Shown piece after piece: positions 1-21,449 of a stretch of 64,000 nucleotides of DNA (position 1 is its first letter; every line of letters begins with the position of its first letter). The translations under genes were made by a program, and so were the position numbers. Below the pieces are notes generated by a model. It saw nothing but the letters and a program-made list of their open reading frames with translations. It was not told the DNA's origin and did not search any database. The DNA lies in contig JAYWIR010000078.1 in the NCBI GenBank assembly GCA_036172245.1, positions 62,001 to 126,000 of the forward strand, given 5' to 3'. The stretch comes from Raillietiella orientalis (taxonomy: Eukaryota).

Positions 1-789
1 GGATTTGCTGATGGTAATTTATGCAGCTCGGGTGTGTAGCACTCCAGTGTTGGTCAATGAAAAGCTGTGTTCACTGAATGCTGGAACATGAATAAATTCT
101 TTCGAACAATCTTGGTGTACGAAGTTTTTTATTCATGAGTAAGATACAACTCAAATGGGTAGCATTTTCGTTTTTAATGTGCATAAAACGCTACGTATGC
201 ATGATGAAACATACAAAGAAAAAGTGTTTTGGCAAGAATTGAAGTGTGTCAGCTTCTTAGGAAACTTTAGAAAACAGCATGGTGTCTTGTCACTGGGACT
301 GGAAACATCAGCATGCTTGGTGCTCACAATCTCCTCGTCGAAAGGCTCCCTAATAGTTGACTGCATGGTGTTGCAGGAGTACTGCTGTTGAGATGAGAAA
401 CTCACTTGCTGCAGTCCTATATTGATGACAACCTGCATTTTTTCCTGTTGCCTTGGGCATCCACGTGTCTTGTGAAGGCAGTTCAGGCGTGTGTATCCGA
501 TGTGTGCTGTGCACGAGTGGAATGTGTCCTTTTTTCCGTGTTGCAAAAAGGAAGATGACAGGGACATGTTGAAACAGTTGTGCTACCTCAAAGTCAGAAG
601 GTGCCACAGAACATTGCTTCATGAACAAGGAGCATCCTCACTGGCATCTTGTTTAGAAAGACGGAATGGACAATTGGTTTCTAGATTCTCATGGACAAGG
701 AAGTGAAGAATTCGGCAGCGTGGTTTTGGTGGAACGCATAAATGCTTAGCGCTTTAGCGTGGGAAATGCCTTTGTTCGGTGGCATTGGT

Positions 790-1591
790 TCCAATAGGTG
801 TTCAGTGGAATAAGGGATGATGCAGCGGTGGGTTGTGATTTTCTCGTAGTTGGGGTCCTTGTTGAGGAAGATGATGAAGCGAGGTGGATCGTATAATTTA
901 AGGTGACGTTGACATTTTGATGGAGCCCAGCGTTCCGATTTTCCGGATTTGCATAATGCCGTAGTTGCTGTGGTCATGTGAGGTCCAGCACGATGATTTT
1001 GTCTCCTTTCCCCATGTGGTTGGCGCCGCTCTATTTGCGATTGGTTACGTGCAGTGCCTAGCATTTGATATGTTTAGCTTCTGTGGTTTTTCCCCAGTTA
1101 CCTTGGTAGTCGGTGTACCAAGGATTGTCCGAGTCTGTTGCTGTCGATGTTGAAGCCATTCTGTTTATCGAACGGTGGTGGTTCGTTTTCGCAAAACCCT
1201 TTTTCTGTTTTTTCCCTCTTTTCTGTATGCGAAGATCTGAAATGCATTGTGTTCCTTTGTGTTTGTAATCGATGTACTTGCTCTTGTATAGTGGGAGGAT
1301 TTTCGTAGGTCTGTGGGCTCCTTTCTCATGGTTGTTGGACTTTTTGCGTTGAGCATTTCGTTTGGAGGTTTGCACGGGAGCTCTTGACAAACGTTGGATT
1401 GGTTTTAGGAGACGTATCGTGGAGGGTATTGCTGTTTGGAGGCATCCCTGGAGGTGAGCGGTTGGTGTTCAGCTTGCCTCTTTACCGAGGATTGCGTGTT
1501 TTGCTTTTCGAAGTGACCTTTCCTGTGTTTCCTCCGCGGTTATCCATCTGTTTGAGGTGAAGCACCGCTGCGTGCTCTTTGCCTATGGCAT
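790..1591 (-). pseudogene. rep: Endogenous CRESS-DNA virus Rep pseudogene (HUH endonuclease + SF3 helicase)
   Basis: One frame from ATG 1591, with internal stops, reads MP*AKSTQRCFTSNRW (motif I, cf. WCFTLNN), ILGKEAS*TPTAHLQGCL (motif II HLQG, 1445-1456), RAPVQTSKR..SNNHEKG (degenerate motif III), WYTDYQGNWGKT (Walker A, 1085-1102), KGDKIIVLDLT* (Walker B, ~980-997). After frameshifts: NYGIMQ..GSIK and DPPRFIIFLNKDPNYEKITTHR (motif C and Arg finger). 3' end approximate. Confidence 0.85.
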
Positions 1592-1646
1592 GTTGCGACT
1601 CTTTGGTGTGTGTGTGTTTGGTTTTCTACGGTTTCGAAAGTGCCGA

Positions 1647-1664
1647 GGTCAGGGTTACCCTGCC
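1647..1664. other. Putative degenerate rolling-circle origin hairpin of the CRESS element
   Basis: ggtcagggttaccctgcc has caggg/ccctg arms ~55 bp upstream of the Rep ATG. The canonical nonanucleotide is not intact. Confidence 0.35.
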
Positions 1665-1689
1665 CACTATCCAAGTGCTTTTGCTGTTC

Positions 1690-2420
1690 TCAGAAATGTT
1701 TCTTTACGTGAACTTCGCCGTAGACGTGGTGTATTGCATTGTCGTGATGATCATCGTATGGGAAATTCAATTGGTAATTTGGGACGTGCTTCCTCTTGGA
1801 TTGGTAAGGTGTTGTGTTGTGGTGCGCGTATTAGGTGTAGGGATTTGGCTTTTACGGAGGGTGCTGATACTGTTAGTCAAGAGTTGTGGCTTGTCAGCTG
1901 TGAAGTTTATTAGGTTGGTTGCTTTGTGTATGATACCGATTTGCATAAGCGCACGGTGAGTACGTTGCTTGGATTGCGGAAACCAACTGCAATTTCGAGT
2001 ATGTTTGAGTATGTAAAGTTGTACGGTGTGAGGATATGTTGCTGCGACAAATCCCGGAGAGGAGGAAGATTTTGGGAGTATGAAAAATGGTGATTCCGAA
2101 GGAGTGTGGAATCAGCTTACTAGGCAGCAAAGAAACTGATCACCTGTGTTTTGTAAATTAAAGAACAGGACGTTATGTGTGTATGTGATCCACGTATTCA
2201 GCACGAGATGCTGCATCTGACTGGTTCTACAGCGACACCCGGAATGTATGCCGCAGTGGACGTAATTGACTGTACTGTTCATCATTTAGCCAACATCCGA
2301 ACGGTGGCTCCAATTATAAACGAGGTGGGAATGAAGAAATGGGTTGTGTACGCGGTCTACTATTTTGAGTGTACGATGGAATTCATAGACGAGGATTCCT
2401 ACTGTGAATTTCGTGCAGTA
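1690..2420 (+). pseudogene. Possible decayed capsid gene of the CRESS element (ambisense to Rep)
   Basis: Arg-rich segment RELRRRRG just past the hairpin, and a beta-strand-like VYAVYYFECTMEF near 2350-2385. Based on position and composition only. Confidence 0.25.
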
Positions 2421-2899
2421 AGTATAAGCCTCGCCATGACTTCGTCACGCAGGCTTCAGAAAAAGAAGGCATTTCGGATTTCGTATTGTGAAGCATCCTT
2501 TCGTAGGATGTGGTCTCTGGACCTTGGTTTCGAGATGCTGATCACGCCCGAGTGCTCCAGAGTGTTGCTCGGTCGTTGCACAAAGGCTGACCGCTGCAAT
2601 GGCCACAAACCTCATTGCTGAGAAGCGTAGTATTTAGCTTGAGACTGGAAAACTACTAAAGTGTATCTCATGGCGGTTCTTCTAGTGTTTTCGTCACTAA
2701 AAGTCGGTGAACTTTACGTCCTCTACTCTTACATGTACTAAAGAATGGGCAGTGCCTGTTCAATGCAGAGGGCTTCATCAGACGCACTCGCAGAGTGAGA
2801 CAGCCCAGTGCTGCGAAAGAGATGAGCCAGCCAAAGCCTCACACCATATGGTTGGGCCTGTAAACACGCCTGCAGCAGCAGGACGCAGCGTTCCACGCG

Positions 2900-3620
2900 A
2901 CGGTGGCCGTAGCTGCGCCGAATGCGGTCAACGGTCGCGTTCTGAGGGCAAAGGCACGTCACCTAGGAATTGAGAACGTGAATGAAAGAAATTGGAAACG
3001 AGCCTCGGTTAAAAGCCCAAAGTTATCCCGAAAGGGGCGCGAAAGCACTGCAGTGCGAGACGTGTATGTGTATCATTATGAAGAAACTGTGTGTTTGAAG
3101 GGGATGGAGAAGGATATTCCCGCTTGCACGTAAACTGACCATTTACGTAGACTGCGATCATACCAGAATGCCCGATGCTCCTGTCATTGACGGTATCTCC
3201 CTAAGCGGTTGCCTGCTGAAGAAAATGAATGGAAGAGTTGCGATGACGGCCCGCTTCTTCGCTTCAGCTGTCGGATGGACCAAAACACCGTCCGAGAAAC
3301 CCTGTGCGTGCGTGGAAATCGAAGCAAACCGGAAACTTGCTCGGGAACACCTCGGGTGAGGCGCTTGTGAAGATCAAATCATACGCCACTACGCAGATTG
3401 CTGGCATCACGCCAATGGAGACCTACTCGCACGACTTTCCAGTCATGCGTACGAAGTAGTCTGCGCTTTTGTCTTTTGCGCTGCAACTTCGGAGACCGAG
3501 TGGATGCATGTCCAACTGCACTCTGCAACAAATGCAGCCATAGACGGAATGTCTGCACAATTCCGGGGTATCTAAAGCTCGAGCGTGAAAACAACCTGCG
3601 TTGGTACGAATGAGCAAACA
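2900..3620 (+). mobile_element. Decayed L1/Tx1 ORF1 (zinc-knuckle) remnant
   Basis: RFCLLRCNFGDRVDACPTALCNKCSHRRNVC aligns by eye with VFCTGCKQFCHRVNACPRSRCFRCGKQGHQVRNC of the ORF1 at 15015-16337. Confidence 0.5.
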
Positions 3621-4199
3621 ACGGACGAGATCCAGCATCCAATCTTGAAAACGCCAGCAGATCTAAGGAGATAACTGGAAACCAAGATGGGGATCACCGG
3701 ATGCGGAAAACTCGTCAAAGAGAAAATCAAGACGTCATTCGACCAGCTGGAGATAAGAAAATGAGAAACGAAGAGGTAGAGCAAGGAAAACCTTACCAAA
3801 TAAAAAGAAATAGGTAAAGCAAGCAGGGAAAGGTTCGACGAAGGACAAAAACACAGTTCAGCTCGCTTAAGAATAAGTAGAAATTGAAGTAAGAATTGGC
3901 TGCGCTGCATTGCATGTTTGGGGTCCTTACCATATGCGATACCACTTCAGAAATGTCATACATCGCCCATCACTCCCCGACACATTCAAATGATAGTTCG
4001 AGGGGATGACACTGAAAACGACATACAAGCCATTTTGTTTCAGCTACCTGCACCTCTGATTGAAAACAAAGAATCTCCTTCGCTCCAATGCTGTACCGTC
4101 TTCCGCATGAGGCATGCATTTGCCATAGAGAATACTTTACCATCCGTTACTCCTTTCTTCCTTCATTGAAAGCAGCAAATTTTCGTGACTCTTTACTAA

Positions 4200-5535
4200 A
4201 AAGTCGCTCCTCCATGCATTGGAAAAGTGCGTACACGAGCACTTCCCGCTCATGTCAACGCCCACTACTTCCATCCTCTGATGCGTCACAGGAGACAGGG
4301 ATTTGGGTATCGTTTGAGGCAGCTCACCACCTTGTTGGAAGCAAATACATGGATTTCCTGCCGCCCAATGAATACAATGCATGGCGGCAGGAATCCATTG
4401 ATTCCTTGGCTGCATTCTTAGGAATGAGCCACGAAAATCTTCGCCCCCTGCATCAATTTCAACCTTGGTCACTCCAAGATATGATGCAGGACGAGGTGAA
4501 GTTTTCCTCCCTGGCCGCCACGCCCCTTGCCGAAGCATTGCCTGCCCTAGAGGTTCGAGAAGACAGTAGCCATCCGGCAAGGTGGGAGTTCTCCTGCACC
4601 ATTGCAGGAAGAACGAAACCACTTGGCCAATGGGCCACGAGCGAGCTTGCGGATGCCGCCACTCCTCGTGCTACACCAAAGGGGAGAAACTCTTGGTGTT
4701 TCCCCCAAGGAACTTATAATCCCTCCCTGGTGTTTGGACGGCTCGGTGTTTCCCCTTGCATGAAGCAAGACGTCTTGCTCTTCTTGCACTGGGGTTTGTG
4801 CTACAACGAACGGCGCCACCGAGTTTCCGGTGGGGTGGCTTCACCCTACTGTGCCCGGTGCGGTGCGACGGAGTCGTTTCCGCACCTTGTTTTGGACTGC
4901 GGTGTCCTCCAGGAACTCTGGCGGAAGTTGGCAGCAGCACTCCTGCTACCGAGGGACACCGCCCGAGAAGTGCTGCGACGTTTCTTCCAAGCCCAAGGAC
5001 TTTCGAAGGCTGCGATGATTTCCACAGCTGGTTGCATCCGCGCCATCGTCACGGTCCGAGACGTGCTGGAGAATAGTGGTCAGCGATGTTGTGTCACCAG
5101 GAAGGCAGCCGACTTCATCAGAGCGGCAGCTGGGTGGCGACACCTGGACGAAAACGCAAAGGAGGAGCTCACTGGCATTTATCGCCGTATGATACACGGT
5201 TTGGAACGAAGAACCCGGTGATCCTTCTCCATTCCCCTGTTTACTTTATTTTTGTTCTTGCGCCCCACTTCCCATTCGCTCCGTAGTGCCTTTGGTGCTT
5301 TTCCTTTTTATCTTTTCCGGTGACTTCGGAGCGTCACCAAAGTTCCCTGGCCCATTCCTCCCATTTAGACTTTACTTTTTTGTTTATAGTCCCCTTCCCC
5401 ATTCGTTCAGGTCCTTCCGTTTTCCTGGCCTGCGTGCCAGTGGTGTATCTCCGTTGTTGGTTCTTGTAGTCGTTGGTTGGAAACAACTATTTCCAGCTAG
5501 TATATAACAATAAACGTCCCGGCGTGACCGGGTAA
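4200..5535 (+). mobile_element. L1/Tx1-clade LINE 3' fragment (family A): ORF2 C-terminus with zf-RVT-type finger and 3' UTR
   Basis: ORF 4088-5221 has LFLHWGL...CARCGATESFPHLVLDC. It is followed by a pyrimidine-rich UTR, AATAAA 5509-5514 and terminal hairpin cccgg-cgtga-ccggg 5518-5532. 5' boundary approximate. Confidence 0.85.
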
Positions 5536-7689
5536 CCAACTTCCATCCTCTGCAATCGAAACGTCTGTCGTCAGAGATATGCAGTTGAAATGAAGGCTCC
5601 CCTAGCAGAGGTCTTTGAATCTCCAGCGCAACGACAAGGACTCTACAGGGAATAGTCCGCAGCTTCCTTGGCAGAATCGCGAGCAGCCCTTCGTTTGTTC
5701 AGAGGGGCCTTGAAGGAATAGAAGATTGCCCGTTGCTATTGAAGCTGCACACAACGGCAGCGCCTCCTTGGATTCATGACGGATTTCGAGGCACGAAGCT
5801 TCCTTCAACATTCCGGTTTTCCCTGAGCCAAATTCAAAAGACAGGGGGAATACAGCTTCCACGCTGTCCTTGATGAACGCGCAGGCGATTTTCTTCCTGC
5901 GCTTGATACGCTGAATAGTTCGTTGGATCGAAATTCCGACTTTTGCCTTGCAGCGTTATTAATCATCTGGAAATCAAAGAGCAGTTCAACTTGAGCTCCC
6001 AGAGACTGCCCACAGAAGCATGAAAGGTATGTTCGAACGTTCCACTTTGTTGTTCCCGGTTACCCCCAGAACTGCATCCCCTATTCAGGAAGACGGACAC
6101 TGATTATTCAATCCACTTACAACACGAAATGGAGAACGTGGTTTACCGCAATTGCTATTCTTCTCGTACCACTTCCCAGCACGAATAGCATGGTCAATGC
6201 GTCAAAACACGCAATGCACTAACGAGCTAGCCCCTCGCTGGGAACCCAGATGGATGCTCTCTCCGTGGACTTAACCAACAGTCCACCACTTGCGCTAAAC
6301 GAGAAATTCTATTTCAAAAATGCTCTGCGGCTTGCGGCACAGATTCGTACCCACTCAACTCGACCCTACCGAAACCCATGACTTCAACAACCTAAATGAG
6401 TACCATAAACAGATGACTGCAAAGAAACAAACCTTGTCGAGTGGGAACACCGAAATTTTGACAATGAAGTGACTCATTCTATTCCACACATAGTACCCAC
6501 ATGTTGGCTTTAGGTCCTTCGCTTTTCTAGAGCAGCTATCTACATCTAATCATGCTCTTCACATCCCGTTTTGTACATACTTCTCTGCCTCCACGAAACA
6601 GAAAATTCATGGTAAACACAATCTCCTCTTCGCTGTCCATGCTCCATTCCTCCACCCTCCACCAGATATTCCATCTTACTGCATCCGTTATCAACCGTCC
6701 ATGCAAACTTTAGTGCCCAAAACTTTTACCATCCCTGCACAAAGGTCCTATGTGCAGACTTGTAACTAGAATGGAATCGCTATTGAAAACCATCGTCATT
6801 AACTCGGTTGACTCCTCCAATGCTCTTTCGATGAACATCTTCATTGCCTTAGTATTCATCATTATCGAAAATCAATCCAGATTTGTCCAAAACACATTCC
6901 CATCATCTGCTCTCTTCTTTGCATCCTTCCATTGCAAACTTGCTGAAGCATTCAGCATTCATTCCACATACCTAGGAAAAAAAAAACACTGACCCTATGT
7001 CTCCCCTTCTACTTTTCGAAACCTGGACATCTATCATTCAACGGGTATCCCTCTGAGATTGAGTTTCATGTGACCACATTACCTGGCATATGTGTCCAAA
7101 TTCTTACACTCTCCAATACGCAAAGCTCATCTCGATCCGTTTCAAGCAGATCTTTGTAAATTAGCCATGGTCCTCATGCAAACTTACAACTTCACTTACA
7201 GAACCTGTACGTACATGAAAATATCGATGCAATACCAATCCACCAACCATTCCTCCTTCACCAATGCACATCCATGATTCATCCTTCATTCTCCATAACC
7301 GCCATCCATACCCCTCTCCCTGACCTGTTACGCACGCAAGAAACACACCCGTCTTGCACTCTTCAGGGTATCTGCGTTGGTGAGTTGCCTGGAAAAGAAA
7401 GAATTGAAACGAGAGCATCGATTTCCAAGAACCCTTTTCACAAGAATACTAAAAATTTTCCATTAGCTGCATTTTCCTTCCCGGAAGGTTTTTAACTGGC
7501 ATTCATCTTCTGTTCATATCTTCCCGTTCCGGACTCACCCACAATTCGGCTTGAACTCAAACTCTGTTGAGAAAACCGCACTACACGCCATAGCAGCACC
7601 CCGCTTGAACGCAATTGGTTTCTTAGGGGCGAATGCTGGAAAGAAATCACAAAAGTCAACAAAAATCACAAAAGGAAGAGGTCCACCCT

Positions 7690-8690
7690 CTGAAACGTGG
7701 CTCCTGCCAGAGGACTGGCCGAGCCTCTCAGGAGCAGCGGAACATCGCGCGCTTCAGCGAGAATTCCAACTTCGGATGCTCTCTGACTGGGACGAAATGA
7801 AGAGCTCAGTCCGACCAGTTCTTTATGAACCGTCTTCCTCCGGCTTTTTGCGAGGGATTGAGGAAGCAGAGGGCCTACCTCTGCTTCCTCAATCCCTCAC
7901 AAACAGGTCCGTCTCTACTCCAGCAATGGACGTCCGACGACTGGCGGAACCAAGAGCTGGGGCCGAAATATAGACCTAGCAATCCGGGTCGACCAGGTTG
8001 CAGGACGCCGATAGCTGCGAATACTCAGACCCAGCGCAGGTAAACCGCATCTTTCGTGTTTTTTTAATCCTCACTTTACACGAGAGCAAGAGCCGAGCGC
8101 GCCTTTGAACAGCGATTGCTGCCAGCAGGCGCCTCAGCGTTGAGGGATGAGATTAGCAACCACCTCCAGGAGCCTTTCTCGATGGCGAAGATCACCTCCG
8201 CCATCGGAAAGCTGAAAAAACGAAAGGCACCAGGGATAGACGGTCTGCCCGCGGAGTTTCACCAGTGCTTCGCGGCAGAGCTGGTCCCCCTGGTGCTGAA
8301 ACTAGGCATGCTGATCCGCGAACGAGGGGACCTTCCCGACTCGTCCATCTAAGCTAGAGTACGTCTCCTCCCGAAAGGAGGAGACTTACGCAACGTAGGC
8401 AACTGGCGGCCCATCACTCTTCTGAATGAGGACGGGAAGTTGCTTGCCAATTTGTGGGGTGAGCGACTTGGACGGGTGGAGGAATCCGTGGTCAGTGTGG
8501 AGCAGACTTACGCGGTTCCCGCGCGAACTGTGGTGGCGATTCAGGTCAAGAGTATCCCGAGTTTCCTTTGTCGAAGGAGGGGAAGGCCAAGGGAGAAGAA
8601 CCGTGTCCGGAGCCATTGCAGTTGCCGATTTGCGTAAAGCATTCGATTTTGAATACTTTTTACCTGTACTGTGGCTGGACCAGTGATCAA
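7690..8690 (+). mobile_element. L1/Tx1 ORF2 fragment (linker and RT N-terminus), decayed
   Basis: KAPGIDGLPAEFH, LLPKGGDLRNVGNWRPITLLNEDGKLLA, EQTYAVPAR and ADLRKAFD, with stops and frameshifts. Confidence 0.8.
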
Positions 8691-8699
8691 GCGACGCCC

Positions 8700-8930
8700 A
8701 AGGAAACAATAGGGAATCTCCCGATTCACCTATTCGCAGACCGGTACGTTCTACCAAGGCAGCAGAACGAAGGGGGAGCAAAATAAAAAACAAAACAAGA
8801 ACAAGAGGAAATGTGGGGGGTGCCGGAGGAGATCACTGTTGCTTCTGGGGCTGTGCATCGTTTGCAGGATCCGGCAAGCTCTTTCTGCATTTCTGGAACT
8901 ACATGTAGCCATTTTTCCCCAAGTCCCACA
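8700..8930 (-). mobile_element. Family-A LINE fragment: ORF2 extreme C-terminus and start of 3' UTR
   Basis: WLHVVPEMQKELAGSCKR resembles WRHLDENAKEELTGIYRR at the end of ORF 4088-5221. It is followed by gtgatc and a pyrimidine-rich tract, as at 5218 and 13126. Confidence 0.55.
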
Positions 8931-9046
8931 TGAGGTGGGGTAAATCTATTTTTCCAATTTTACATTACATTCATACTACAATCACATTCACACTACTGGC
9001 ACTATACTACCACTTTGAAGTCCTTGGGGTGTCACAAGTTCTGCAC

Positions 9047-11081
9047 TCAGAGTGGGTTTCCAGATGTTTGGTTTCGGACGTCGTCCACAATGCTCTTCAG
9101 GATGAATCGGTACGTCCAGGCATAGATTCGTCCACAGTTCCTGATATCGATCTCCCTCTTGATGAGTCCTTGCAGGATCTCCATCGGGGGTGCGGCTCTC
9201 CTGGCTTTCCTCATCTTCCACCACCGCACAAGTATGGCGGTGATGAAGAGGGCGATGGTCGTTCTTACCATGGGATTGTAGCAGGGAACATTACCATTTT
9301 TCTAAAACATCCCGGATTTCCATCACATACTTATTGTTTCGTCCTATGATCCTTTTCAGGATCAGCCAGTCGTGTAGCAATGTGGGACACGTCAAGACAT
9401 GAAGTCTCGTATCGATGTCTCCACATGCCGTGCAGTCTTCATCTTCCCGTCTTCCGGTGAAGTGCTTGAGCCTGGACCCGCTTTGGATTCCTCCATGATA
9501 GAACATCAGGAGTTCGTCCTGGGTGCCCGGAGGAAGGTCACTCCTCCATAGCGTCGTGACGATTGCTAACAGGTTGATGCTGTCACTCCCGTAGCGATCG
9601 GCGGCTTCTTGGAGGGCACTGGTGTCTTGGTCCTGGTCCTTGATAATCTTCCGGAGATTCATCTTGGTTACCCTAGACCACTCTGGAAGTCGTTGTGGTT
9701 TATCCACACTTCGCGGGTCTTATGGGTGAACCTACCTAGCATCATCTCCATATACCGAAGTATACGAGTGTGATGTAGGTATCCTCCTCGTCGCCATTCC
9801 TGGATTCTTTGCAGGGTAACTCTGGGCCGCTGGTAGATCCAGCTTCTCGTGTCCGGAGGGACCGGAAGCATCCACGGGATCACCAGGATGAATTCCTCCT
9901 GCCAGAGTTCCCTGCTTCTCGGCACGATCTTGATGTTGTGCTTGCGCACCAGCCGCTGCTTTCTCCTCCAGGTTGGGTCGATGGTGTTCCACTCCTCTGC
10001 TCGGCCTAGCAGCTCAGTCATCAGGCCTTTCGAGTTGTTCAACAACAACGCGTAGGCCCTATGCACCGCGTACGGCCAGTCATCCCAGTGAGTAGCGATA
10101 TCCAGGATGTGTCGCGAATCCATGATTTCCATGGAGGTGCGACATCATCAAGCGACTTCATCCCGGAACCGCCCTCTTCTTTGGGACGACACAGGAAGTT
10201 TCAAACGAACTCTGGGGCAATAATGCCCCCACAATATCTTTCTTTGCAGCTTTTCTACTTCTCTGGTATTCTTTTTCTTCATTCTCGCGAAGGCCGCTCC
10301 AAAGAGCACCTTTGGAAGGAGTACTCCATTCCAGAGGTTGGCCTTTCGCTTCATGCCAAAGTCCAGTCGGGTGTACTTCTCTGCTTCTTTTGCCTTTTTC
10401 CCAGGATTTCCGTCCACAGTAGCTTCGACGCAGAGTCGTCGCCGATGTAGACTCCCAGGTACTTGGCCGCGTCCATTGTTTGAAATCCTCTCCCCGTGAG
10501 AGCGGAGAGATCCAGGATTCCGACGGGCAAAAGCTGGCTCTTCTGGGCGTTAATCTTCAGGTCCAGTCCTTCTTCCATTAGCGTCACCACATCCAGGAAT
10601 GCTTGCTGATCCCTCTCTCCCCTAATGAAGAAGAGGAGATCGTCTGCGTAAGCGAGATGGGTGAGCTTCTTGCTGTTGATTTCCATACCCCGTAGTCGCC
10701 CGCTCTTCTCGATGAAAGAAGACAGCGCCTCCATGTAATAACGAACAGCATCGGACTTGGAGAGTCTCCCTACCGAACTCCTCGTTCCATCCGAATGGCT
10801 GTTGTTTCTACCCCGTTGATCTTGATCCGGAAACGTTGATTCCGGAGGATCATTTCTACGAAGTTGCTGAAGTATTCCGGAAGTCCCAGCTTTTCCAGAA
10901 TCTTCAGCAGCATCCCGTGATCGATGGTGTCGAAGGCTTTCTCCATGTCGGTGAACGCCAGCACCAGGTTCTCGCCGACGTATCGGCTAAGTCCCACGGT
11001 GGCCTGCGCGCACTTGACATTGTCCGACATGTGGCGTCCGGGTACCGCACATGTCTGGACAGGAGAAATCAGCCTCGACAT
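9047..11081 (-). pseudogene. Family-B ORF2 RT and C-terminal domains (frameshifted)
   Basis: ISPVQTCAVPGRHMSDN, FTDMEKAFDTIDH, ERGVR*GDSPSPML, LAYADDL, KINAQKS, KYLGV and CTACGDIDTRLHVLTC across successive ORFs. Confidence 0.9.
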
Positions 11082-13417
11082 ACCATGGAGACCAACCTGT
11101 TCCTCGCCAGCAGCTGGTGGCAGCTGCAACAACGCGAGGCTCAGCTAGGTCGTGAGAGTCCTGGACTCTCCACAGATCGGGGGGAGGGAAGCCTAAGGGG
11201 AGAAGCGGCGCCCGGAGCCCTTGAGGTCGCAGTCGATCTGCGTAAAGCTTTCGACTGCGTCGACCAGGAACTCCTCCTGGAGCTCCTGGAACGCATGGGA
11301 TTTCCTGCCGTCTTCCTGGTCTACCTGCGCTCCTGCTGGCGCTTCGCGTTCATCAATATTAATTTCAGCGGACGGCACGTGTACGGCGTTCCGGTTCGTC
11401 GCGGTATCCGGCAGGGTGACAGCCTCAGCCCCCTGCTCTTCAGCATCTACTTTGAGTTGGTGCTGAGAGCATACAGGGAGACTTTGGCAACCCTGCCGAG
11501 CTCGTGTCCCGGCACGCCTGCCGTGTCGACCTATGCCAACGACCTTCTGCTCCTGCTTCCCGGGTCCACCCCGGCATCGGCGCTCGAGGATTTCTTCGAG
11601 TTGCTGCGCCGTGGAACTGGTCTCGACGTAAACAGGGCGAAGTCGTCCATAATTCAATCGGACACGTCGCGGGCAGGACGGTCGGACTGGAACCGCTTGG
11701 GGATCCCCACGGGCGGATACATCAAGTACCTTGGCGTTCCGTTGGGGGACTTCTGCGCTGCAGAAGCCTGGTTCGACCGTCTCCAAAAGGTGGAGTTGGA
11801 GATCGGCCCGTTCCGGGACGGCAAGTTTTACTTGCAGGAAACGGGCCGCGGTATGGAACGCCTTTGCGGCCCCCTTCCTTCGCCCCCTACTTTTTGTGTG
11901 TCCCGCCCCTCCCCAAATTAGGACACGGTCAAGGGACCTCATACGGAAAGCCCTCTGGGGCAACCGGAGGCCCCGCGCCCGCCTTAAAGACTTGTGCGCT
12001 CCACGCAGGGACGGTGGACTTGGTCTCCTGACGTTGGAGCGCATGGAGCGACAGCTCCAATTTAGAAAACTTGCCCTTGTGGCAAAGTATTGGACAGCAC
12101 TCTGGTGTGCGCCGGCAAGACTCCACGCTCACAGGGCGACCGGCTGTTTCGGATTGACCACAATCCTAGTAGCCAACGACCGTAGCCTAAACCATTGTGG
12201 GTTTCAGCTACGGGACTTGGTTGCCCTGTTGAGAGACAAACCGTGGATCTCCTGCATCCCTGCGGACTGGACTACCTAGCTACAGGAGTCCGTTTCCGCG
12301 TGGGCCTAAATCAACGGCTCCAGCGATGAGGACTTCTCCTGCCTCCGTAGAGGCAGGTAGGCTAATCAGCCACTGCAGGAGATCGTTTGCAACCCACGGA
12401 AACTTCTGTGGGCTTCCTTCACCCTCCTTGCCATCGTGCTGCCCTCCCTCAGGAAAGTTAGGGACAGCCAACATGAGGCATCGTGGGAAGTGTCCTGCCT
12501 CATCGGAGGCGGGAAAAAACTGTTGAAGGCGTGGACATCCCGGGAACTAGCGGACGCTAGTACCCCCTCTGTCCCGCCGAATGGACTTGTACGCTGGGGC
12601 GCGCTGCTCGACGTATCTCTGGAGGAGGTAAAGTGACCCCCAGCGTCTTGGGACAACGGCACCCTTCCCCTGCAGTAGCAGGAGACGGCGTTGCTTCTGC
12701 TCCATTGGGGACTTTTAAGCAGAGCACGCCTGTCTTACTGGACATCGGGGAGTGTGGATGCCAATTGCGTCAAGTGCGGGGAAAGGGAGTCCTTCCCCCA
12801 CTTAGTCATCGATTGTGTTGCTCTCCGCGAGATGTGGGACCGACTCTCGTCGATCCTGAACATTCCGGTGGGCGACCCCAGGAACATCTCTAGACGCCTC
12901 CTGATGCGGGACGCCTTGCCAGCCTCCGGGTGTAGCAGTGCTCTGTTGCATACGCGGAATCCTGGACAAGTGGACCGCGTCAAGGAGAGGCCGGACCAGT
13001 CGGAATGCCATTCACTGGGCAGCCATCTCCTTGGAGAAGGCCTGCCGTTGGCGCCGACTCAAGAAACATTTGCCGGCACTTGTTCGCATCCGCAACCGGA
13101 TGCAGAGGCCTCCTCACGGTGTACCGTGATCCCCTCCCTTCCCCTCCCCCCGCCCAAAGAACATTGCCTCCCCAGGCGGTTTCCTTTTTTTGGTTTTATT
13201 TTTGTTTTTCCCGCCCCTGCGCCAGTGTGGAGGACCTTATCGGCCTGCGGGTCGGTAAGGACAAGTGCCACAACATAGTCGGATCATGTGTTCCGACGCA
13301 AAACAAATCAACGGAAAAAAAAGAAAAACTTTACTTGACAAGCAAGCAAGACTTTATTATGAAATTTTTATTGTAAAAATTTTAATAATAAAAGCCCCGG
13401 CTCACCCGGGTGAAAAA
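11082..13417 (+). mobile_element. 5'-truncated family-A L1/Tx1 LINE inserted antisense into family-B ORF2
   Basis: VDLRKAFDCVD, RRGIRQGDSLSPLLF, YANDL (YADD decayed), VNRAKS, KYLGV, GGLGL and CVKCGERESFPHLVIDC. The 3' UTR ends aataaaagccccggctcacccgggtgaaaaa at 13417. Confidence 0.9.
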
Positions 13418-14796
13418 CCTCTTCTTCAGAGAAATCCTCCTCCAGTCTCCTCCGTTGGAGGTCGTCTATCTTCTTCTCAAGATGGCTCAAGAAGGTCTTC
13501 TGCATCGCCTGACACAGATGTTGTCGCCGGAAGTGTCCCGTGTATTGCCTTTCGAAGGCGTCCACGATGTCCTCCGACGTGTGTCGGCTATGGTCGCCGT
13601 CCTGAATACTGAAGATATCTGAAGCCAGATTCTTCTTCTCCAGCACGCCGACTTCCTCTTTTACGCTATGGAAGACGTCCCGACTCTCGTACTGATCGAA
13701 GTACTTTGAGAGGGAGCGATCTTGGATGTTCAACTCCCGGTACGCCTCCTGCCTCAGTCTCTTATCGCCAAATTGCATTTCTGCAAACAAATGTATCCTG
13801 TGCTTCAGGCTGTCCCAGTCGGCGACTCTTCTGATCGTAGTGGTCTTCAGAATCGCCTCCAGGACCTCCTGATGACAGGGATGGGTTTCGAACCAGGCGG
13901 GCATGCTGATGAGTGCCTCCCTGGTGCCTTGCCTTCGCCTAGGATTTTCCGTCCTCAGGGAAAACAGCACCAACGGGTGATCCGACAGCGCAGTGAGCGT
14001 GTCGCGAAAACCTTGGATGCGGTTCCCTAGTTCGGTACTGTGAAGGATGTGGTCGATCGGCTTGTGGCTAGCTGTTCGCCACAGCAGCCCGAACTCGTCG
14101 GACAACCGCCAATTCGCCGTCCTTCCCCTGGAGTCCTGGGAATGGGTGATCACATCCAGGATGTTGAGATCGCCAGCGACGATCGCGACGTCCTTGGGCG
14201 CGACCTTTTGCCGGAGAGCTGCATGCAGCGCCTCCGCACACCGATGTTTCAGTCTGGGTGGCCCGTACACGCTCACCAGGAAGAGGTGAACGGTAGCGGA
14301 CCACGCCAGTCGCACGCCGATGATGCGTCCCGGCAAGGGACAGAGGACTTCCAGAATGGTGGAGGCCAGGTGGTTCTTGATCAAGACCGCCACACCTTCC
14401 GTGTTCCGCCGTCCCTCGCTGACGAACATCTGGCTATCGAGGCGTCGTTCCATCTGTTGGCTGATCTGGTGACCCAGCCTGTGGGTCTCCGGCAGGATGT
14501 CTTGATGTTTTCACCCGGATAAGCCGGGGCTTTTATTATTTTAAAAAATCAGAATTACAATTATTAATTGCAGTCGATTGATTATCATTGCTTTTGTGTT
14601 TCTGTCGGAACACTTTTCCGTATTGTTTTGCACTTGTTTACCGACTTGAGTGCCGGTAAGGCCTACTCCACTCGCGAAGGATGTCTTGATGTGCGATGAT
14701 CCGCACGATCCTTTTTCTTTTCTCCTGGTCGATCAATCCATTTACATTCCAGAAGGCGATGTTGATCCTCCTGGAGGTCGATAGAGACGAGGTCAT
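13418..14796 (-). pseudogene. Family-B ORF2 apurinic-like endonuclease (APE) domain, split by a 169-bp insertion
   Basis: ATG 14796 gives MTSSLSTSRRINIAFWNVNGL...HQDIL, then after the insertion PETH, GVAVL, VSVYGP, AGDLN, IDHI and SDH. Confidence 0.9.
14509..14677 (-). mobile_element. 169-bp family-A 3'-end-only retroinsertion with 15-bp TSD
   Basis: Direct repeat aggatgtcttgatgt at 14494-14508 and 14678-14692. The insert is homologous to the 3' UTR at 13215-13417 and ends AATAAAAG-CCCCGGCTTATCCGGG-TGAAAA. Confidence 0.9.
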
Positions 14797-14808
14797 AAAG
14801 GGGAAGAC

Positions 14809-16395
14809 CTACTTCTTGGCCTTCCTGAATTTCTTCTGTCTGGGAGGTTGTTGTGATCTCCCAGACGAAGAAGAAGCAGTGGGCTTCTCGCTGCCAGCGT
14901 CACTCTCCTTTTCGGTGAGGTCGGTAACATTGGCCTCCTCGGTGGAGTGCTCGGCTTGTGTGACGAGTTTACGTGAAAGTACTTCCAACACCACCCTAGC
15001 GCAGAAGTTTGCCTTTACGTCGAGAAGCTTGTCCTCCAGCTTCTCGCGCTCGGCAGTTTCCACCACCTGGTTGATGGTTTCTTGCGCATTGCAGATCTTC
15101 TGCAGGAGTTGTTCCTGCTGAGCTCCGCTCTGCGCCTCCGCCACTGCTTCTGCCAGTTGTTCCACCACTTCCGTGGTCTGCAGGACCTCCTGCGACACTG
15201 GGGTGTGCTCTGGCGTTTTCGCCACCTCGCCTTCCTCCCGACTTCCATCCTCTCGGCCTCCTCTGCCACTACTTCCGGGATAAGAGGAGTTTCCTGTTCC
15301 TTGACGAGCATCTTCCTCTTCCCCTTCTTTCCTACTTCTACAAAGCCGTCCGCCGAAACCGGAGCGGCCTCCTTCGCCTTCCTCTGTTTTTCAGTCACCT
15401 TTCTAGGCTGTTCCGCCTCCTTGAGGGTTCTTTCCTTCATGGGGGAAAGCCCTTGCATCTTACGGCAGTTGGCGTATTCGGGACAGCTCCACTTAGCATA
15501 TCCCGGTTTTTTGCAAAAGGAACAGACTCCCGGCTGCTGGCAATTGCGGACTTGGTGTCCCTGTTTGCCGCAGCGGAAACAACGTGATCTTGGGCAAGCA
15601 TTGACCCTGTGGCAAAACTGCTTGCATCCGGTGCAGAATACCGGTTGCTGCCGGTAGCGCATGCTCACCTCTTGGGAATCGCCATCAATGTGTGCGATCC
15701 CGGGAATCACCGTATCTTCGAAAAGCGTCACCTTAGCGATCACGTTACCAGAAAAGATCTTCCTGGAGAAGTTCTGGAACTCAAGTTCCAGTACTTCCCC
15801 ATACCTTGCAAGAAAATCCCACACCGTTATTTGGGTGGTATATATGGATACTCCACTTAGGAAGACGGTCGTGTATGGCATCTCGCCGATGCCACGGACC
15901 ATTCTTCCCTGGATGTTGATCCCCGTTTGGATCAACGCTTCCCTAATGTGTTCGCAGTCTGTGTAGACTGTGAAACCCGATGTACTAGGGATGATCGCCT
16001 GGATGCGATCAAAGTATACATTCGCCTTGTACAGAGACAAGTAGACCTCTCTGATGTTATGGAACCGGATTAAGTCGGTCTTGAAGGTGATGGGCTTCAC
16101 GTTCGGACCCACCCGAACGATCGGCTCGTCCACCCTGGCCAGCTTCCCACATTCCGGTTTCCCGGAGCTTCTCTGGGGCTGGGCACTAGCCTGGCCCGCC
16201 GCCACCGCCGCGTACGAAGATGGCCGCACCGCCGCAGCCGAGCAAGATGGCGTCGCGTCCTGCGTGGACGCCCGCGGGTCCCGCCTGGGACGCCGCCGCC
16301 GCGGGCGCGATCCTTGGAGTCGCCGCCGCCTCGCCAATGCCGTACTGTACCTCCATTGGGGACGTCGGCCTCTCCACTGCTCCCGATGCCTGCAT
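14809..16395 (-). pseudogene. Family-B ORF1 (Tx1-type gag-like, CCHC zinc knuckles), probably two frameshifts
   Basis: SYAAVA motif, RRM-like TTVFLSGV...LARYGEV, and three knuckles CTGCKQFCHRVNAC, CFRCGKQGHQVRNC, CSFCKKPGYAKWSC. The stop at 14809 lies 12 nt before the ORF2 ATG. Confidence 0.85.
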
Positions 16396-16872
16396 CCTCG
16401 CGGCTGACACTGCCGCTGGGGAAGTTAACAGGGCTTCCACCGTGGACTCCTCGGTGCTGCTACTGCAGGTGGTGAAGGTGGTCCTCGGCTGCACTGTCAC
16501 TGTCACACTATTTTTCCTTGACTCTTCCCCGCTCAGGGCACGCAAAAATTGCCGCGGCAGTGGTTTTACGCACTGCCTTGGCGGGGTATTGGGTAAAGTT
16601 TTCAACTAGTAATAATCGCGCCTCCCCGTAGATCAGCCGCGGCGATACTGCCCGTGCGCGAGCCTGACTGACAGTCCTCGTCTCAGCAGCAGAGGAGCAA
16701 TCTGCCGATCTGCCGACTGCAATCTGGTGGCGACGGCAACACCGCCCACCAACCAACACGTGAGGCGGCACAGCAAACGCAGCAATTGACTGCACTATGC
16801 CTTAAGTCAGAGACATCTCTCTGAGACCCGGTGTGTCCATTCTGCTACTAGATAGCCTACTTATGTGGCCAT

Positions 16873-17420: not shown

Positions 17421-19803
17421 TTGTGGCGCGACGGGCAGTAGGTCCTGTGCTCTTCGCGAGATCTCAGTCCCTTCTAGGTTCCTGGTTTTTTGACTGCTCG
17501 CGCGAAGATTTGCAAGTGAATTGCATAGTTTACTCTTTCCATGCTCTTGGAGGAGATAGCAATCCTTGTTTATTATTATAGACATCTACACTGTTCTGGG
17601 TTGTTCACTCTGTCAACAGATTGCTGGTTCTATCTACAAGCCTGCTCCAATCTTCTGCACCCAATCTTCTTTATTTTTCCGTATTGGCATTCCTTGCAGT
17701 CCACTCTTCACGCGCACACCACATTCCTTCAAGAGACAATGCTTTTCTTCTCAGCACATCCGATGGTCGTTCGCTACCCTCATCACCTGCCAAGCCCTAC
17801 TTTCACCTCCTATCTCGAAGAAAAGCATCCACTTGTGAATCGCCCATGTGATTTTCCTCTCTCAAAGGGAAAACTAGGAGACGCGGAGCGTTGAAGCCGT
17901 CATGATCCAGAGTGCATCCGACCATCTTCACCTCCTCTACTCACAGAATGTTGATTTCCGTTGTTCGATTATCCATCAGCTGCTGGCGGAAACTCACACT
18001 TGAGATCCGTGGGATGGAAAGATCGAGCGTTCGAATGAGGATGCTGTGCAAACAGGCGGTGCACAGAGGGGAATACATAAGATACGAGCGTATTGGTTTC
18101 CAGTCGGGCTCAGTCTGGGGTCAATTCCAAATGATTTATTCTTATGGGAATCCTATGTGGTAAGGATCCCGTTGCAAACACACGTTTTCCTGTGAGGCTC
18201 ACGTTGACGTCATCACCGAGCATAAGTTGGGAATGACTCCTTGCTGCTTGTTGCTTTCGGTTTTTGGAAAACAGGCTGCGATGCGGGTTGTTCAGGTAGA
18301 TGATGGACATTCTCAATGGATGGTGATGTTGATAATGTATTTATGCTGTCACAGCACGTTTTTAACTGTCTTGCGTGGTCTCGAAGTTTGCTGAAGCATC
18401 TCGAATCGAGCTGTTCTCGGCAAGCTATCGTGGTACCCATTCATGCTTGTGAATGGAAAAGCTGACAGCAGTAAGCACTGTGATTGTCAGGGTTTTTTGA
18501 ATAGGGGTCGGTTTAAAATAAGCAGTCAACAAGAAAAGGTGTTTCGTTCAGATCTCGGATTGTGGATACAGCATTCCTCATTTCGTAGCAGTGTTACCAC
18601 TTGTGTTCTCCATGTTCGTCACTTACATGCTTGAACCACGATATCACAGCAGTGCTGTAGTCAAGAGAGAAACATTCACCAGAAACTGATGTGAAGAATT
18701 TCATTAACCAGACAGCAGACAACTCGAGTATTTAACTACCTTTATGAACTTATAATTAGCATCTGCAGTCCTTTGTGTAAACTGAGAACGGAACTTTATT
18801 TCCATTGTGAATTCAGCCCAGCTATACAAAGATTGCCTTTGGGTATTCTCAAATTTGGTGACCTTTCCTCAACGCAAAGTGAAGAAACCGAGAATCGTAT
18901 CAGGGATTCTGGAGAGGCATTCGTTTGCCCTGCGTCCATTTAACAAGTGGGAAGCTCCTCAAATAAACTTTGACAACTGAAGTGCACGCAAATAATCATA
19001 GATATCTGCTGCACGAATTCGGGAGTTTGATAATTCATTGCATAAGCAGATGCTGTGTTATCCGAAGCCAGGACCAGGAAATGGTAAGAGTAAGTGTATA
19101 CTGCTGATGCAAATGCAAACCTCATTTCGAAAGGAAACACTTCGAGTGCTGAAATTTTGTTGGTTTGGATGCAGACTTTGAGTTTGCTTGTCGCCAAATG
19201 ACAACCTATAGTGGAAGTGTCTTGCAAAATAATGTATCCTACTGGAGCCGTTCCTTATGCAATTTGTGAGTCAGTTGCAAACAATAAGCATATTCGTGTA
19301 GACATATCCCGTTGTACAGGTGCTCTTCTTGTACATGGAAATTGCATGAAGGTTACGCACTCTTAGGGAAACGAGTGCGGATGTTCGATTTGGGTTGAAT
19401 ACTTAAAATTTAGAATTCATTCGTTCAACTCTTGCCATATTTTGTTGGTTTCGTAATGTATAGATGGATGCTTGCAAAATGTATGAATTTATCAAAAAGG
19501 CATGATGCTTTTCTAATTGGTTACTTCCTGTGATCGGACCACTTTGATCTTACTTTGAAGATTGTATTTAGCTCTCCATAGGCCATGCCATAAACTTATG
19601 TACATCACCACAACATAAAAGTATGCTTGAAATAAGTCCAGATTAGAATTTCAATAGATAAACATGTATATTTTTTTTTTTTTTTACAAACACACCTAAT
19701 CCTAATGTTTAGGAAAAAAAATACCTATTTATATAATCTGCAATCAAAACGATGGGAGGAGTTTAAGGTAGGTATGATTTAAACCTACAAAAGTCTGAAA
19801 GAA

Positions 19804-21182
19804 TCATTCTAACTCTGTTTCACATGCATTAACAAAAATGTAGCTGGGAAGTTCTGAACCATAGAGCGAAATAGTATAACAGGTTTGCTCTACTTTTTCT
19901 AGATTTTTCTTTAGGATAGAGAGCTTTTTATACAATTCTCTTGATGAATAAGGCATGACTAACTGGTAACCATTATAAATGCATTGTAAAAACTCGGAAA
20001 TTGCATAGCATTCCTTTAGATTACCAATGCTTGCTGAACTAATACTTTTCTTCATTAGTTCTCCAGTGAAATCTGCTATACCAGCTAAATAGTCAGCAAA
20101 TGGTACGACAACATGAAAGGAACCTTCATCAGAAGAAAATTCTAATGTTTTTTCTATATAATCCAGGCTGACTAGGTCAGTATTTTCCAAGTAGTAACAA
20201 AAGGCCACTGCTTCAATATATTCCTGCAGACCTAAGTTGAGAGAAAGATTAAATATGAGAACCTGTGACTAATCAAATTTGCATGTAATGCATTTTGTAA
20301 ACTGTGACTGAGAGATCACAGAAATTAAGGAACTGGCTAATACTATACATCACAAAAAGCACTCCATATTCCATGTGCACAAAGAAGCATTAAGAAGTCA
20401 AACCTTAAAACTTTTCCAAAAGATTATTAGCTCAAGAAATTATATTACAATACTTTCAATACCCCTATTTTCAGACATGGGTCATATACAAATGAGGGAA
20501 ACCTCTTATTTAAGAAAATTATTAATTCATTATCAAATTTAAGAAACCAAAAAGAATTTGACAGATTTGGTTTCATAAACGTGAGTTCAAGTCCTATCCA
20601 TACACTTCCATTAGTTCCAAAATGTAATTCCAGTATTTACATCAAATGCTATAGAAAGCAAAAAAGATTTTCTTAAATTAGACACACTTCATTAAGGCAA
20701 GAAAATCACAACCTTTTCGAGAACAGCATAAAAACGACACAGTTCTGGGTTCGTTTAATTCAAGTACATATAAACTCATTCTTAAAACCCGTGCAATCAA
20801 ATGAAAAGCCAAATACCATTTGTGTAAGCTTTCAAAAATTTATGATGATCCTCCGCTTTAAGTTCTTGGGCAATGATTCTCCAGTCCAGTTGTTGTAAGT
20901 TTTTTAATCGCAGTTTTACATCTTCAATAGAATCGTTTGATGACTGTGAATTCCTGAAATTGAAATTATTACGAACATCAGAACATGTGAATGCATCATT
21001 CACGTTTCCTTATAATTTTACATAAGCACTCTTGAAAATTGTTCCACTCACTGAGAAAGACGCTGTAACTGGTATATAATTCTTTTGCTTTCGATGTTGA
21101 TATTTCTTGCAATTTTGAAAATTTTCTCATGTTTGTTGTTTTTATTATCTAACTGATGGCTAAGATGGGCAAACGACAACAT
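19804..21182 (-). CDS. TSNAX: Translin-associated factor X (TRAX), 3 exons: 21182-21052, 20953-20817, 20231-19804
   Basis: LDNKNNKHEKIFKIARNINIESKRII, GLQEYIEAVAF, YLAGIADFTGELM and LEKVEQTCY..GSE. GT-AG introns keep the frame. Confidence 0.9.
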
Positions 21183-21449
21183 TTCGAGACGTTTAAGCAC
21201 ATATTAATTCTTACATCGAATAAGACATATGTAAACACAGTTTTATTGTATATAGAGTTCCCAAATTAGAGTTCCCAAGGTAAAATAGGATGAGGGAATT
21301 CTTAAAATTAGGCTATAGATTCGATTTCTATAGCATAGAACCGATTGCTAAAGAGTCAACTTCTCTTCTAATCTCATGGTCATCTTAGTTGACCATCTTA
21401 GTTGACCATCCTCAATTGCTACGGTTTCATTTCTGATTATGTTTCCGGT

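What the first reader, a model, noticed from the sequence alone, without database searches (positions are those of the whole stretch)
790..1591. Fossil CRESS ssDNA virus Rep hidden below the ORF track
Seen: motif I (RCFTSN), motif II (HLQG), Walker A (GNWGKT) and Walker B (IIVLDL) lie in a single reading frame broken only by point stops. Motif C and the Arg finger (FIIFLNKDPNYEKITTHR) follow after frameshifts. Established: this is the HUH+SF3 layout of Cressdnaviricota Reps, and the helicase wording (NYG, P.Y.Ki..dR) recalls nanovirus/alphasatellite-like Reps. Inference: an old germline integration recording an invertebrate host for a possibly unclassified CRESS lineage.
Basis: partly seen in the sequence, partly recalled or inferred. 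Interest (0 to 1): 0.8.

Follow-up and report, generated by a model that had tools for sequence, protein, structure and literature searches.

The report
Dead DNA virus, copied many times
A long-dead small circular DNA virus (replication gene plus part of its coat gene) sits in an arthropod chromosome and was later copied passively to many places with a large block of repetitive host DNA, a known kind of viral fossil from an apparently unclassified virus lineage.

Summary
The Rep fossil is real. A profile of 120 public CRESS Reps scores it at 41 bits, against at most 7.4 in 300 shuffles; Pfam alone misses it. It is more than a lone Rep: an ambisense capsid remnant (about 1683-2208, +), a collapsed origin hairpin and a probable mini-intron belong to it. 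It is not single-copy: 18 Rep-bearing copies lie on 14 contigs, about 15 after collapsing near-duplicates. They sit in a mosaic block of over 40 kb with a LINE piece, 427-bp and 643-bp arrays and the last exon of a Translin-family gene. Copies share stops, lack the motif III tyrosine (12 of 12) and the nonanucleotide (17 of 17), evolve neutrally (dN/dS about 1) and have no fixed ends. Best reading: one old integration, dead before it spread, amplified by segmental duplication; LINE-driven copying is the main rival. The 'single frame broken only by stops' is partly coincidence, as the linker is frameshifted and deleted. It is neither nanovirus nor alphasatellite, since Rep and Cap share one molecule. 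The host is arthropod-like. The scan had already noted other CRESS fossils in this genome, but not this family.

The parts
816..1591 (-). Degraded CRESS Rep gene (HUH nuclease + SF3 helicase): 5 stops in the main frame, frameshifts in the linker and after Walker B, deletion at 1121
1322..1333 (-). Position of motif III; no Y-x-x-K in any frame here or in 11 other aligned copies
1237..1277 (-). 41-nt GT...AG segment between nuclease and helicase, probable viral mini-intron (acceptor position shared with other Rep insertions; donor uncertain; splicing not shown)
1121..1122 (-). Site of a deletion of about 96-101 nt, shared only with the C71 copy among 12 aligned
1645..1665 (.). Collapsed origin hairpin: stem remnant resembling the stem of another insertion (L042), loop nonanucleotide absent
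1683..2208 (+). Capsid gene remnant, ambisense to Rep: Arg-rich start and conserved core. The window copy lacks about 136 nt at 1682 (intergenic DNA and gene start) and about 100 nt near 2015-2035
1..815 (.). Non-viral flank shared by the copies; continues left of the window through a 2.6-kb spacer, a 643-bp array (about 7 kb), a 427-bp array (about 8 kb) and a LINE 3' piece
2209..7657 (.). Non-coding shared block right of the virus (no Pfam family above cut-off in the 24 frames scanned, no Rfam hit)
4281..5538 (+). 5'-truncated LINE inserted into the block with a 14-bp target duplication (4267-4280 / 5539-5552); present in only some copies
7673..16424 (.). Cluster of nested LINE pieces (RT, APE, zinc-knuckle ORF1), partly shared with other copies
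17457..20336 (.). Host flank also carried by copies on C26, C31, C71, C133 and C19; furthest right point of shared sequence
19804..21203 (-). Translin-family (TRAX-like) host gene: upstream exons here are single-copy; only the last exon was copied with the block

Best explanation
A monopartite, ambisense CRESS-DNA virus of about 2 kb (size inferred) integrated once, long ago, into LINE- and satellite-rich DNA of an arthropod germline (shown: viral identity, chromosomal setting; inferred: single event). It lost its origin loop and catalytic tyrosine before it spread (inferred from their absence in every copy examined). It was then multiplied as a passenger when the surrounding block was duplicated in tandem and dispersed by segmental duplication and unequal exchange, each copy gathering further stops, deletions and LINE insertions (shown: shared flanks, shared lesions, neutral divergence; inferred: the mechanism). 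The site next to the TRAX-like gene, i.e. this window, is probably an old source locus (inferred). The sequence has no protein function now; at most it could yield small RNAs (untested).
For: 18 Rep-bearing copies on 14 contigs share flanks for kilobases on both sides. Flank and virus diverge in step, e.g. C7 78% flank and 81% Rep, C133 92-96% for both, and the flank tree broadly matches the Rep tree. Stops are shared in 5, 5, 2, 5 and 7 of 12 aligned copies. dN/dS is 0.62-1.92 in 11 pairs, with 10 of 11 intervals including 1, whereas two independent insertions of related viruses give pN 0.03 and pS 0.79. No YxxK in 12 of 12 copies; no nonanucleotide, even with one mismatch, in 17 of 17 intergenic regions, while 6 stem-loops were found at other insertions. 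Ends vary on both sides. Head-to-tail units at C104 and C26. The last exon of a host gene was carried along, also by the most diverged copy's flank. The family is one clade (SH-aLRT 99).
Against: No empty site was found, so the virus-host junctions are not pinned (one search failed to extend them). The same LINE 3' piece precedes the 427-bp array wherever that end is held, and one copy stops (C23, -19270) where another starts (C59, -19267), which retrotransposition could also explain. One dN/dS pair lies above 1 (1.92, interval 1.08-4.45), and intervals are wide (136 codons). Three copy pairs are 98.8-100% identical and may be haplotype or assembly duplicates. No long reads were available; the one run found (X1) holds only short contigs and may be the source sample.
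Confidence: 0.8

Rival explanations
1. LINE-driven amplification: read-through transcripts that include the virus fossil and end at a LINE 3' tail are retrotransposed, inserting preferentially in front of the 427-bp array, which builds head-to-tail units with variable 5' ends (as proposed for carnivore CVe-4).
For: The LINE piece diverges in step with the unit (92, 88, 85, 73-75%). Left ends are very variable. The C23 copy ends within 3 bases of where the C59 copy begins. Precedent in PMC6372831 and PMC11089739 (passages).
Against: Shared DNA spans over 40 kb including two arrays. Right ends also vary (2159, 2841, 2893, 3249, 3687, 20265, 20336). No poly(A) is visible at the 10 left and 2 right breakpoints printed (read by eye, no systematic search for target duplications). 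DNA upstream of the LINE is also shared between C2 and C9.
Confidence: 0.12
2. Rep- or origin-driven rolling-circle spread (Helitron-like or GRD-like element), using its own Rep or that of an infecting virus.
For: Head-to-tail units and variable ends; the idea has been raised for plant geminivirus elements (PMC5014472 passages) and for other Rep insertions (PMC3198968 passages).
Against: No catalytic tyrosine in 12 of 12 copies, no nonanucleotide in 17 of 17, dN/dS about 1, shared stops.
Confidence: 0.03
3. Many independent integrations of one virus strain.
For: The genome does carry many independent CRESS insertions.
Against: Family copies share non-viral flanks and lesions; the block's non-viral parts gave 0 blastn hits to 22 other insertion loci; no purifying selection between copies.
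Confidence: 0.02
4. Assembly artefact or contaminating free virus.
For: 7 of 14 block copies on contigs over 2 Mb lie within 100 kb of a contig end (0.75 expected); a few copies are near-identical.
Against: Copies differ by up to 23% with nested shared lesions; the gene is too decayed for a live virus; short-read contigs of run X1 cover parts of it, one with 0 differences over 283 nt.
Confidence: 0.02

Closest known systems
Endogenous CRESS/circovirus-like Rep elements of invertebrates multiplied after insertion (Liu et al. 2011, PMC3198968; Metegnier et al. 2015, PMC4573495; passages read)
   Same: Degraded Rep in an invertebrate genome; copies with similar flanks ascribed to segmental or post-insertional duplication after one integration.
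   Different: Here most of an ambisense genome (Rep, intergenic region, part of Cap) is kept, there are about 15-18 copies (PMC3198968 says integrated copies are generally under 10 per species), and the block with arrays, LINE and host exon could be mapped.
CVe-Carnivora-4 (Dennis et al. 2019, PMC6372831; PMC11089739; passages read)
   Same: One integration amplified to 10-20 copies; association with non-LTR retrotransposons.
   Different: Vertebrate circovirus Rep embedded in retroelements, ascribed to LINE retrotransposition; here a block of tens of kb without fixed ends, and a non-circovirid helicase type.
Geminivirus-related DNA of Nicotiana and yam EGV1 (PMC5014472; passages read)
   Same: Repeated degenerate Rep with intergenic region; GRD evolves neutrally.
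   Different: Plant geminivirus origin; short direct repeats that keep an origin-like sequence, whereas every copy examined here has lost the nonanucleotide.
Unclassified CRESS viruses near the nanovirus/alphasatellite clade (CRESSV4/5; PMC5923481, PMC8780604; passages read)
   Same: Walker B aspartate and single arginine finger in the sister Rep fit this part of the tree; fold hits are mostly unclassified CRESS Reps, with cruciviruses and a nanovirid lower down.
   Different: No labelled references were available for a placement; public relatives are at most 37% identical over the full length; the nuclease half is closer to circovirus structures (E 4e-14) than to the nanovirus-type entries (E 7e-5; assignment of these PDB entries to viruses recalled).

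Membership tests
Cressdnaviricota-derived endogenous element | HUH nuclease (motifs I-III) fused to SF3 helicase (Walker A, B, C, Arg finger) | tested here: met
   Motifs I, II, A, B, C and Arg finger located; HMM 41 bits vs 7.4; motif III position present but degenerate. Sister Rep hits Viral_Rep at E 1e-15.
Cressdnaviricota-derived endogenous element | Capsid gene on the same genome | tested here: met
   Cap profile from 9 pieces of other insertions: 8-17 bits in 5 sister copies, 0-2.5 in 3, no hit in the window copy and 5 others, shuffle maximum 3.0. Window 1851-2030 and 2035-2175 match the L042 capsid region at E 0.004 and 9e-5. The comparison capsid hits Circo_capsid at E 6e-6, below the curated cut-off.
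Cressdnaviricota-derived endogenous element | Origin stem-loop with nonanucleotide | tested here: not met
   0 of 17 intergenic regions have it; a stem remnant was found in 14 of 17. Read as decay, since 6 stem-loops occur at related insertions.
Cressdnaviricota-derived endogenous element | Joined to host chromosome | tested here: met
   358-kb contig with host genes; shared flanks in many copies. Long-read confirmation was not available.
Nanoviridae | Multipartite genome of 0.9-1.1 kb components (PMC8515864, abstract start in listing) | tested here: not met
   Rep and Cap are on one molecule in ambisense layout.
Alphasatellitidae | Rep-only circle without capsid gene (recalled) | tested here: not met
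   Capsid remnant present.
Circoviridae | Ambisense Rep/Cap around the origin | tested here: met
   Layout shown, but shared by many unclassified CRESS viruses.
Circoviridae | Rep groups with circoviruses/cycloviruses in a reference phylogeny | not testable with these tools
   No labelled reference set. The sister Rep has a single Arg finger, which PMC8780604 (passage) lists for CRESSV2-5, Nanoviridae and Smacoviridae; no named circovirus or cyclovirus species among the top 50 fold hits (one 'Circoviridae sp.' label at rank 7).
Rolling-circle transposon (Helitron-like, Rep-driven) | Functional HUH transposase under purifying selection among copies | tested here: not met
   dN/dS about 1, shared stops, no catalytic tyrosine.
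Rolling-circle transposon (Helitron-like, Rep-driven) | Conserved terminus | tested here: not met
   An apparent common end proved to be a LINE insertion site; homology runs on in other copies.
LINE-retrotransposed EVE (CVe-Carnivora-4 type) | Fixed 3' end, poly(A), target-site duplications around copies | tested here: inconclusive
   None seen at 12 breakpoints read by eye; later LINE insertions obscure many ends.

The most novel reading that the evidence does not exclude
The block is not a passive segmental duplication but a self-propagating composite element: a LINE whose read-through transcripts carry tandem arrays, a whole fossil virus genome and a host exon, and which inserts in front of its own 427-bp array, so building head-to-tail chains and spreading antiviral small-RNA templates of an undescribed intron-bearing CRESS family through an arthropod genome.
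Probability: 0.1. Interest if true: 0.6.

Novelty: new member of a known kind. Interest (0 to 1): 0.27.

Why it matters
It records an arthropod host for a CRESS lineage with no close public relative, and shows its layout (ambisense Rep/Cap, probable Rep mini-intron). It is also a caution for counting viral fossils: about 18 hits here are one event. The TRAX-adjacent site gives a single-copy anchor for finding the orthologous insertion in related species and so dating both the virus and the block's spread. None of this is a new kind of biology.

Tried and rejected
Pfam on the X-read Rep and the motif C piece: 0 families. PDB sequence search with the X-read Rep: no Rep hit. IMG/VR search with a sister helicase: 1 pattern match, 0 confirmed relatives. 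A second Rep remnant at 2513-2409 (tblastn E 0.26): not supported by the Rep HMM in 16 regions, best 0.9 bits. Arrays as RNA gene clusters: no tRNA in 10 loci and no Rfam hit in the block. Hidden genes in the flanks: no Pfam family above cut-off in 24 frames; 0 tblastn hits from 118 ORFs of other loci. A fixed right end: rejected. Subtelomeric location: none of four telomere-type repeats at 19 contig ends; the enrichment near contig ends may just reflect arrays breaking the assembly. Extending the virus-host junctions using two related insertions: scores at or near shuffle level in all 11 comparisons, one marginally above and only over the known overlap. A second dN/dS control (L060 vs L057) was misaligned (6% identity) and dropped. 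Expression: no RNA holder listed, which is no evidence either way. Run X1 (word share 0.17) may be the source sample and is not counted as independent. Earlier-finding look-ups by sequence and by words returned nothing. The helicase tree is the quick search only, 127 columns, with no labelled references. No paper supplements were read.

Full report
Observation. Motif I (1567-1550), motif II (1456-1445), Walker A (1102-1085) and Walker B (997-980) share one frame with five stops; the NYG stretch and motif C with the Arg finger follow in two other frames. Pfam finds nothing in the X-read pieces and neither does a PDB sequence search. A profile built from the best 120 of 153 public Reps found with a better-preserved Rep from this genome scores the main frame at 40.6 bits and the motif C piece at 9.5; the best of 300 shuffles scored 7.4. 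The linker between motif III and Walker A is not simply an open frame with stops: the window lacks about 96-101 nt at 1121, and the residues that align with other Reps lie in other frames.

More of the virus is there. On the plus strand from about 1683 lies a capsid remnant. A sister copy's ORF matches a capsid of another insertion (E 1e-4). A profile of 9 capsid pieces scores 5 sister copies at 8-17 bits, 3 at 0-2.5, and misses the window copy and 5 others (shuffle maximum 3.0). The capsid region of the related insertion L042 matches window 1851-2030 and 2035-2175 (E 0.004 and 9e-5), and another related insertion matches to 2208. The window copy has lost about 136 nt of intergenic DNA at 1682. 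A stem remnant at 1645-1665 resembles the origin stem of L042, but 0 of 17 intergenic regions hold the nonanucleotide, even with one mismatch, while six stem-loops occur at other insertions. A 41-nt GT...AG segment (1277-1237) matched in 13 of 19 loci examined. Its acceptor lies at or within 3 nt of the same position in 12 of 14 Rep rows from other insertions. The intron idea came from two earlier scan notes; splicing is not shown and the donor is uncertain.

It is one of many copies. The genome (210 Mb, 491 contigs) gave 58 matches, which I grouped into 18 Rep-bearing copies on 14 contigs. Three pairs are 98.8-100% identical and may be haplotype or assembly duplicates. Counts are lower bounds. 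Homology runs far beyond the virus. To the left it passes through a 2.6-kb spacer, a 643-bp array, a 427-bp array and a LINE 3' piece (to about -20.6 kb). To the right it passes through non-coding DNA and LINE pieces to 20336. Units stand head to tail on C104 and C26. Ends vary on both sides, and an apparent common end was a LINE insertion site. The block takes in the last exon of a Translin-family gene whose upstream exons are single-copy in this window; copies on C26, C133 and C71 hold only last-exon pieces, two of them with stops. The most diverged copy (C31) shares this flank, so the window's site is probably old and a source of copies (inference).

The virus was dead before it spread. In 12 aligned copies the five stops are shared by 5, 5, 2, 5 and 7 copies. 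None has YxxK at motif III; PMC8780604 (passages) gives that tyrosine as the nucleophile. dN/dS over 136 anchored codons is 0.62-1.92 in 11 pairs, with 10 intervals including 1 and one above it. Two independent insertions of related viruses give pN 0.03 and pS 0.79 (a second control was misaligned and dropped). Flank and virus diverge in step. This excludes repeated infection as the source of the family and makes Rep-driven spread unlikely.

Mechanism. Best reading (0.8): one old integration, then passive segmental duplication in repeat-rich DNA. LINE-driven copying (0.12) has some support: the same LINE piece precedes the 427-bp array and diverges in step, and one copy ends where another begins. 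Against it are the 40-kb span, variable right ends and no poly(A) at 12 breakpoints read by eye. Copies are enriched near contig ends (7 of 14 vs 0.75 expected; other insertions 1 of 12), but no telomere repeat was found at 19 ends and two contigs end inside the array, so this may be an assembly effect. The virus-host junctions could not be fixed, and no age in years can be given without a rate or orthologues.

Virus and host. In a quick helicase tree (155 rows, 127 columns, no labelled references) the 8 family rows form a clade (SH-aLRT 99) inside a group of this genome's other insertions (97), and one branch (97) separates all 35 rows from this genome from all 120 public Reps. A fold of a sister Rep (pLDDT 89.5) finds mostly unnamed or unclassified CRESS Reps; the first classified species is banana bunchy top virus M-Rep at rank 21. 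PMC5923481 (passages) places CRESS4/5 at the base of the nanovirus-alphasatellite clade and reports that about 71% of unclassified Reps are chimeric, so the helicase resemblance does not assign a family. The host's EHD protein is 82-88% identical to its best 120 hits, and all rows naming an organism but one are arthropods. The only run found holds short contigs covering parts of the region and may be the source sample.

Comparison and verdict. Rep fossils duplicated with their flanks are described in invertebrates (PMC3198968 and PMC4573495, passages). A 10-20-copy amplified lineage is known in carnivores (PMC6372831 and PMC11089739, passages), and repeated geminivirus DNA in plants (PMC5014472, passages). 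PMC4231630 (passages) reports 20 independent circovirus-like insertions in an isopod, and PMC6186406 (passages) notes intron-bearing Reps in arthropod-associated viruses. PMC11532311 (passages) gave only family names. Seven literature searches showed no description of this family, but with the host unnamed they could not exclude one. The scan already lists 23 CRESS-related notes for this genome, none matching this sequence. Verdict: a real fossil, a new member of a known kind; interest 0.27.

Noticed in passing
window 16527-16665 (-): Full-length U4 snRNA match (79.9 bits) directly 5' of a LINE with zinc-knuckle ORF1 (15015-16424) and APE ORF (13368-14510): a U4-LINE chimera or a U4-targeting LINE.
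   Followed up: no
window 4281-5538 (+): 5'-truncated LINE with a perfect 14-bp target duplication, present in only some copies of the block (C104, C5, C23), so it marks a sub-lineage.
   Followed up: partly
L041-L060 (G000, 20 regions): Many independent CRESS insertions of related viruses, several with Rep, capsid and origin stem-loop, some clustered (L049, L051, L055), often beside LINEs.
   Followed up: partly
L021, L022 (left of the window); starts/ends of C78 and C19: Two non-coding tandem arrays (427 bp and 643 bp, about 95% between units) with no Rfam or tRNA match; contig C19 ends and C78 begins inside the 427-bp array.
   Followed up: partly
window 19804-20336; C26, C71, C133: Last exon of a Translin-family gene duplicated with the block as decaying pieces.
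   Followed up: yes
L081-L084 (C24, C40): An 11.5-kb inverted duplication (99%) near the start of C24 carrying part of the block's right region but no viral DNA match.
   Followed up: no
L098 (C1) and L099 (C31): Isolated capsid fragments 71-75% identical to the family without the shared flanks; possibly separate insertions of a close virus.
   Followed up: partly
C2/C77, C7 (two places), C104/C5, C24/C40: Near-identical long duplicates suggest uncollapsed haplotypes or recent duplications in this assembly.
   Followed up: no
window 30654-58536: Ordinary host genes right of the block: phosphodiesterase, Sds3-like, ADP-dependent glucokinase and EHD pieces.
   Followed up: partly
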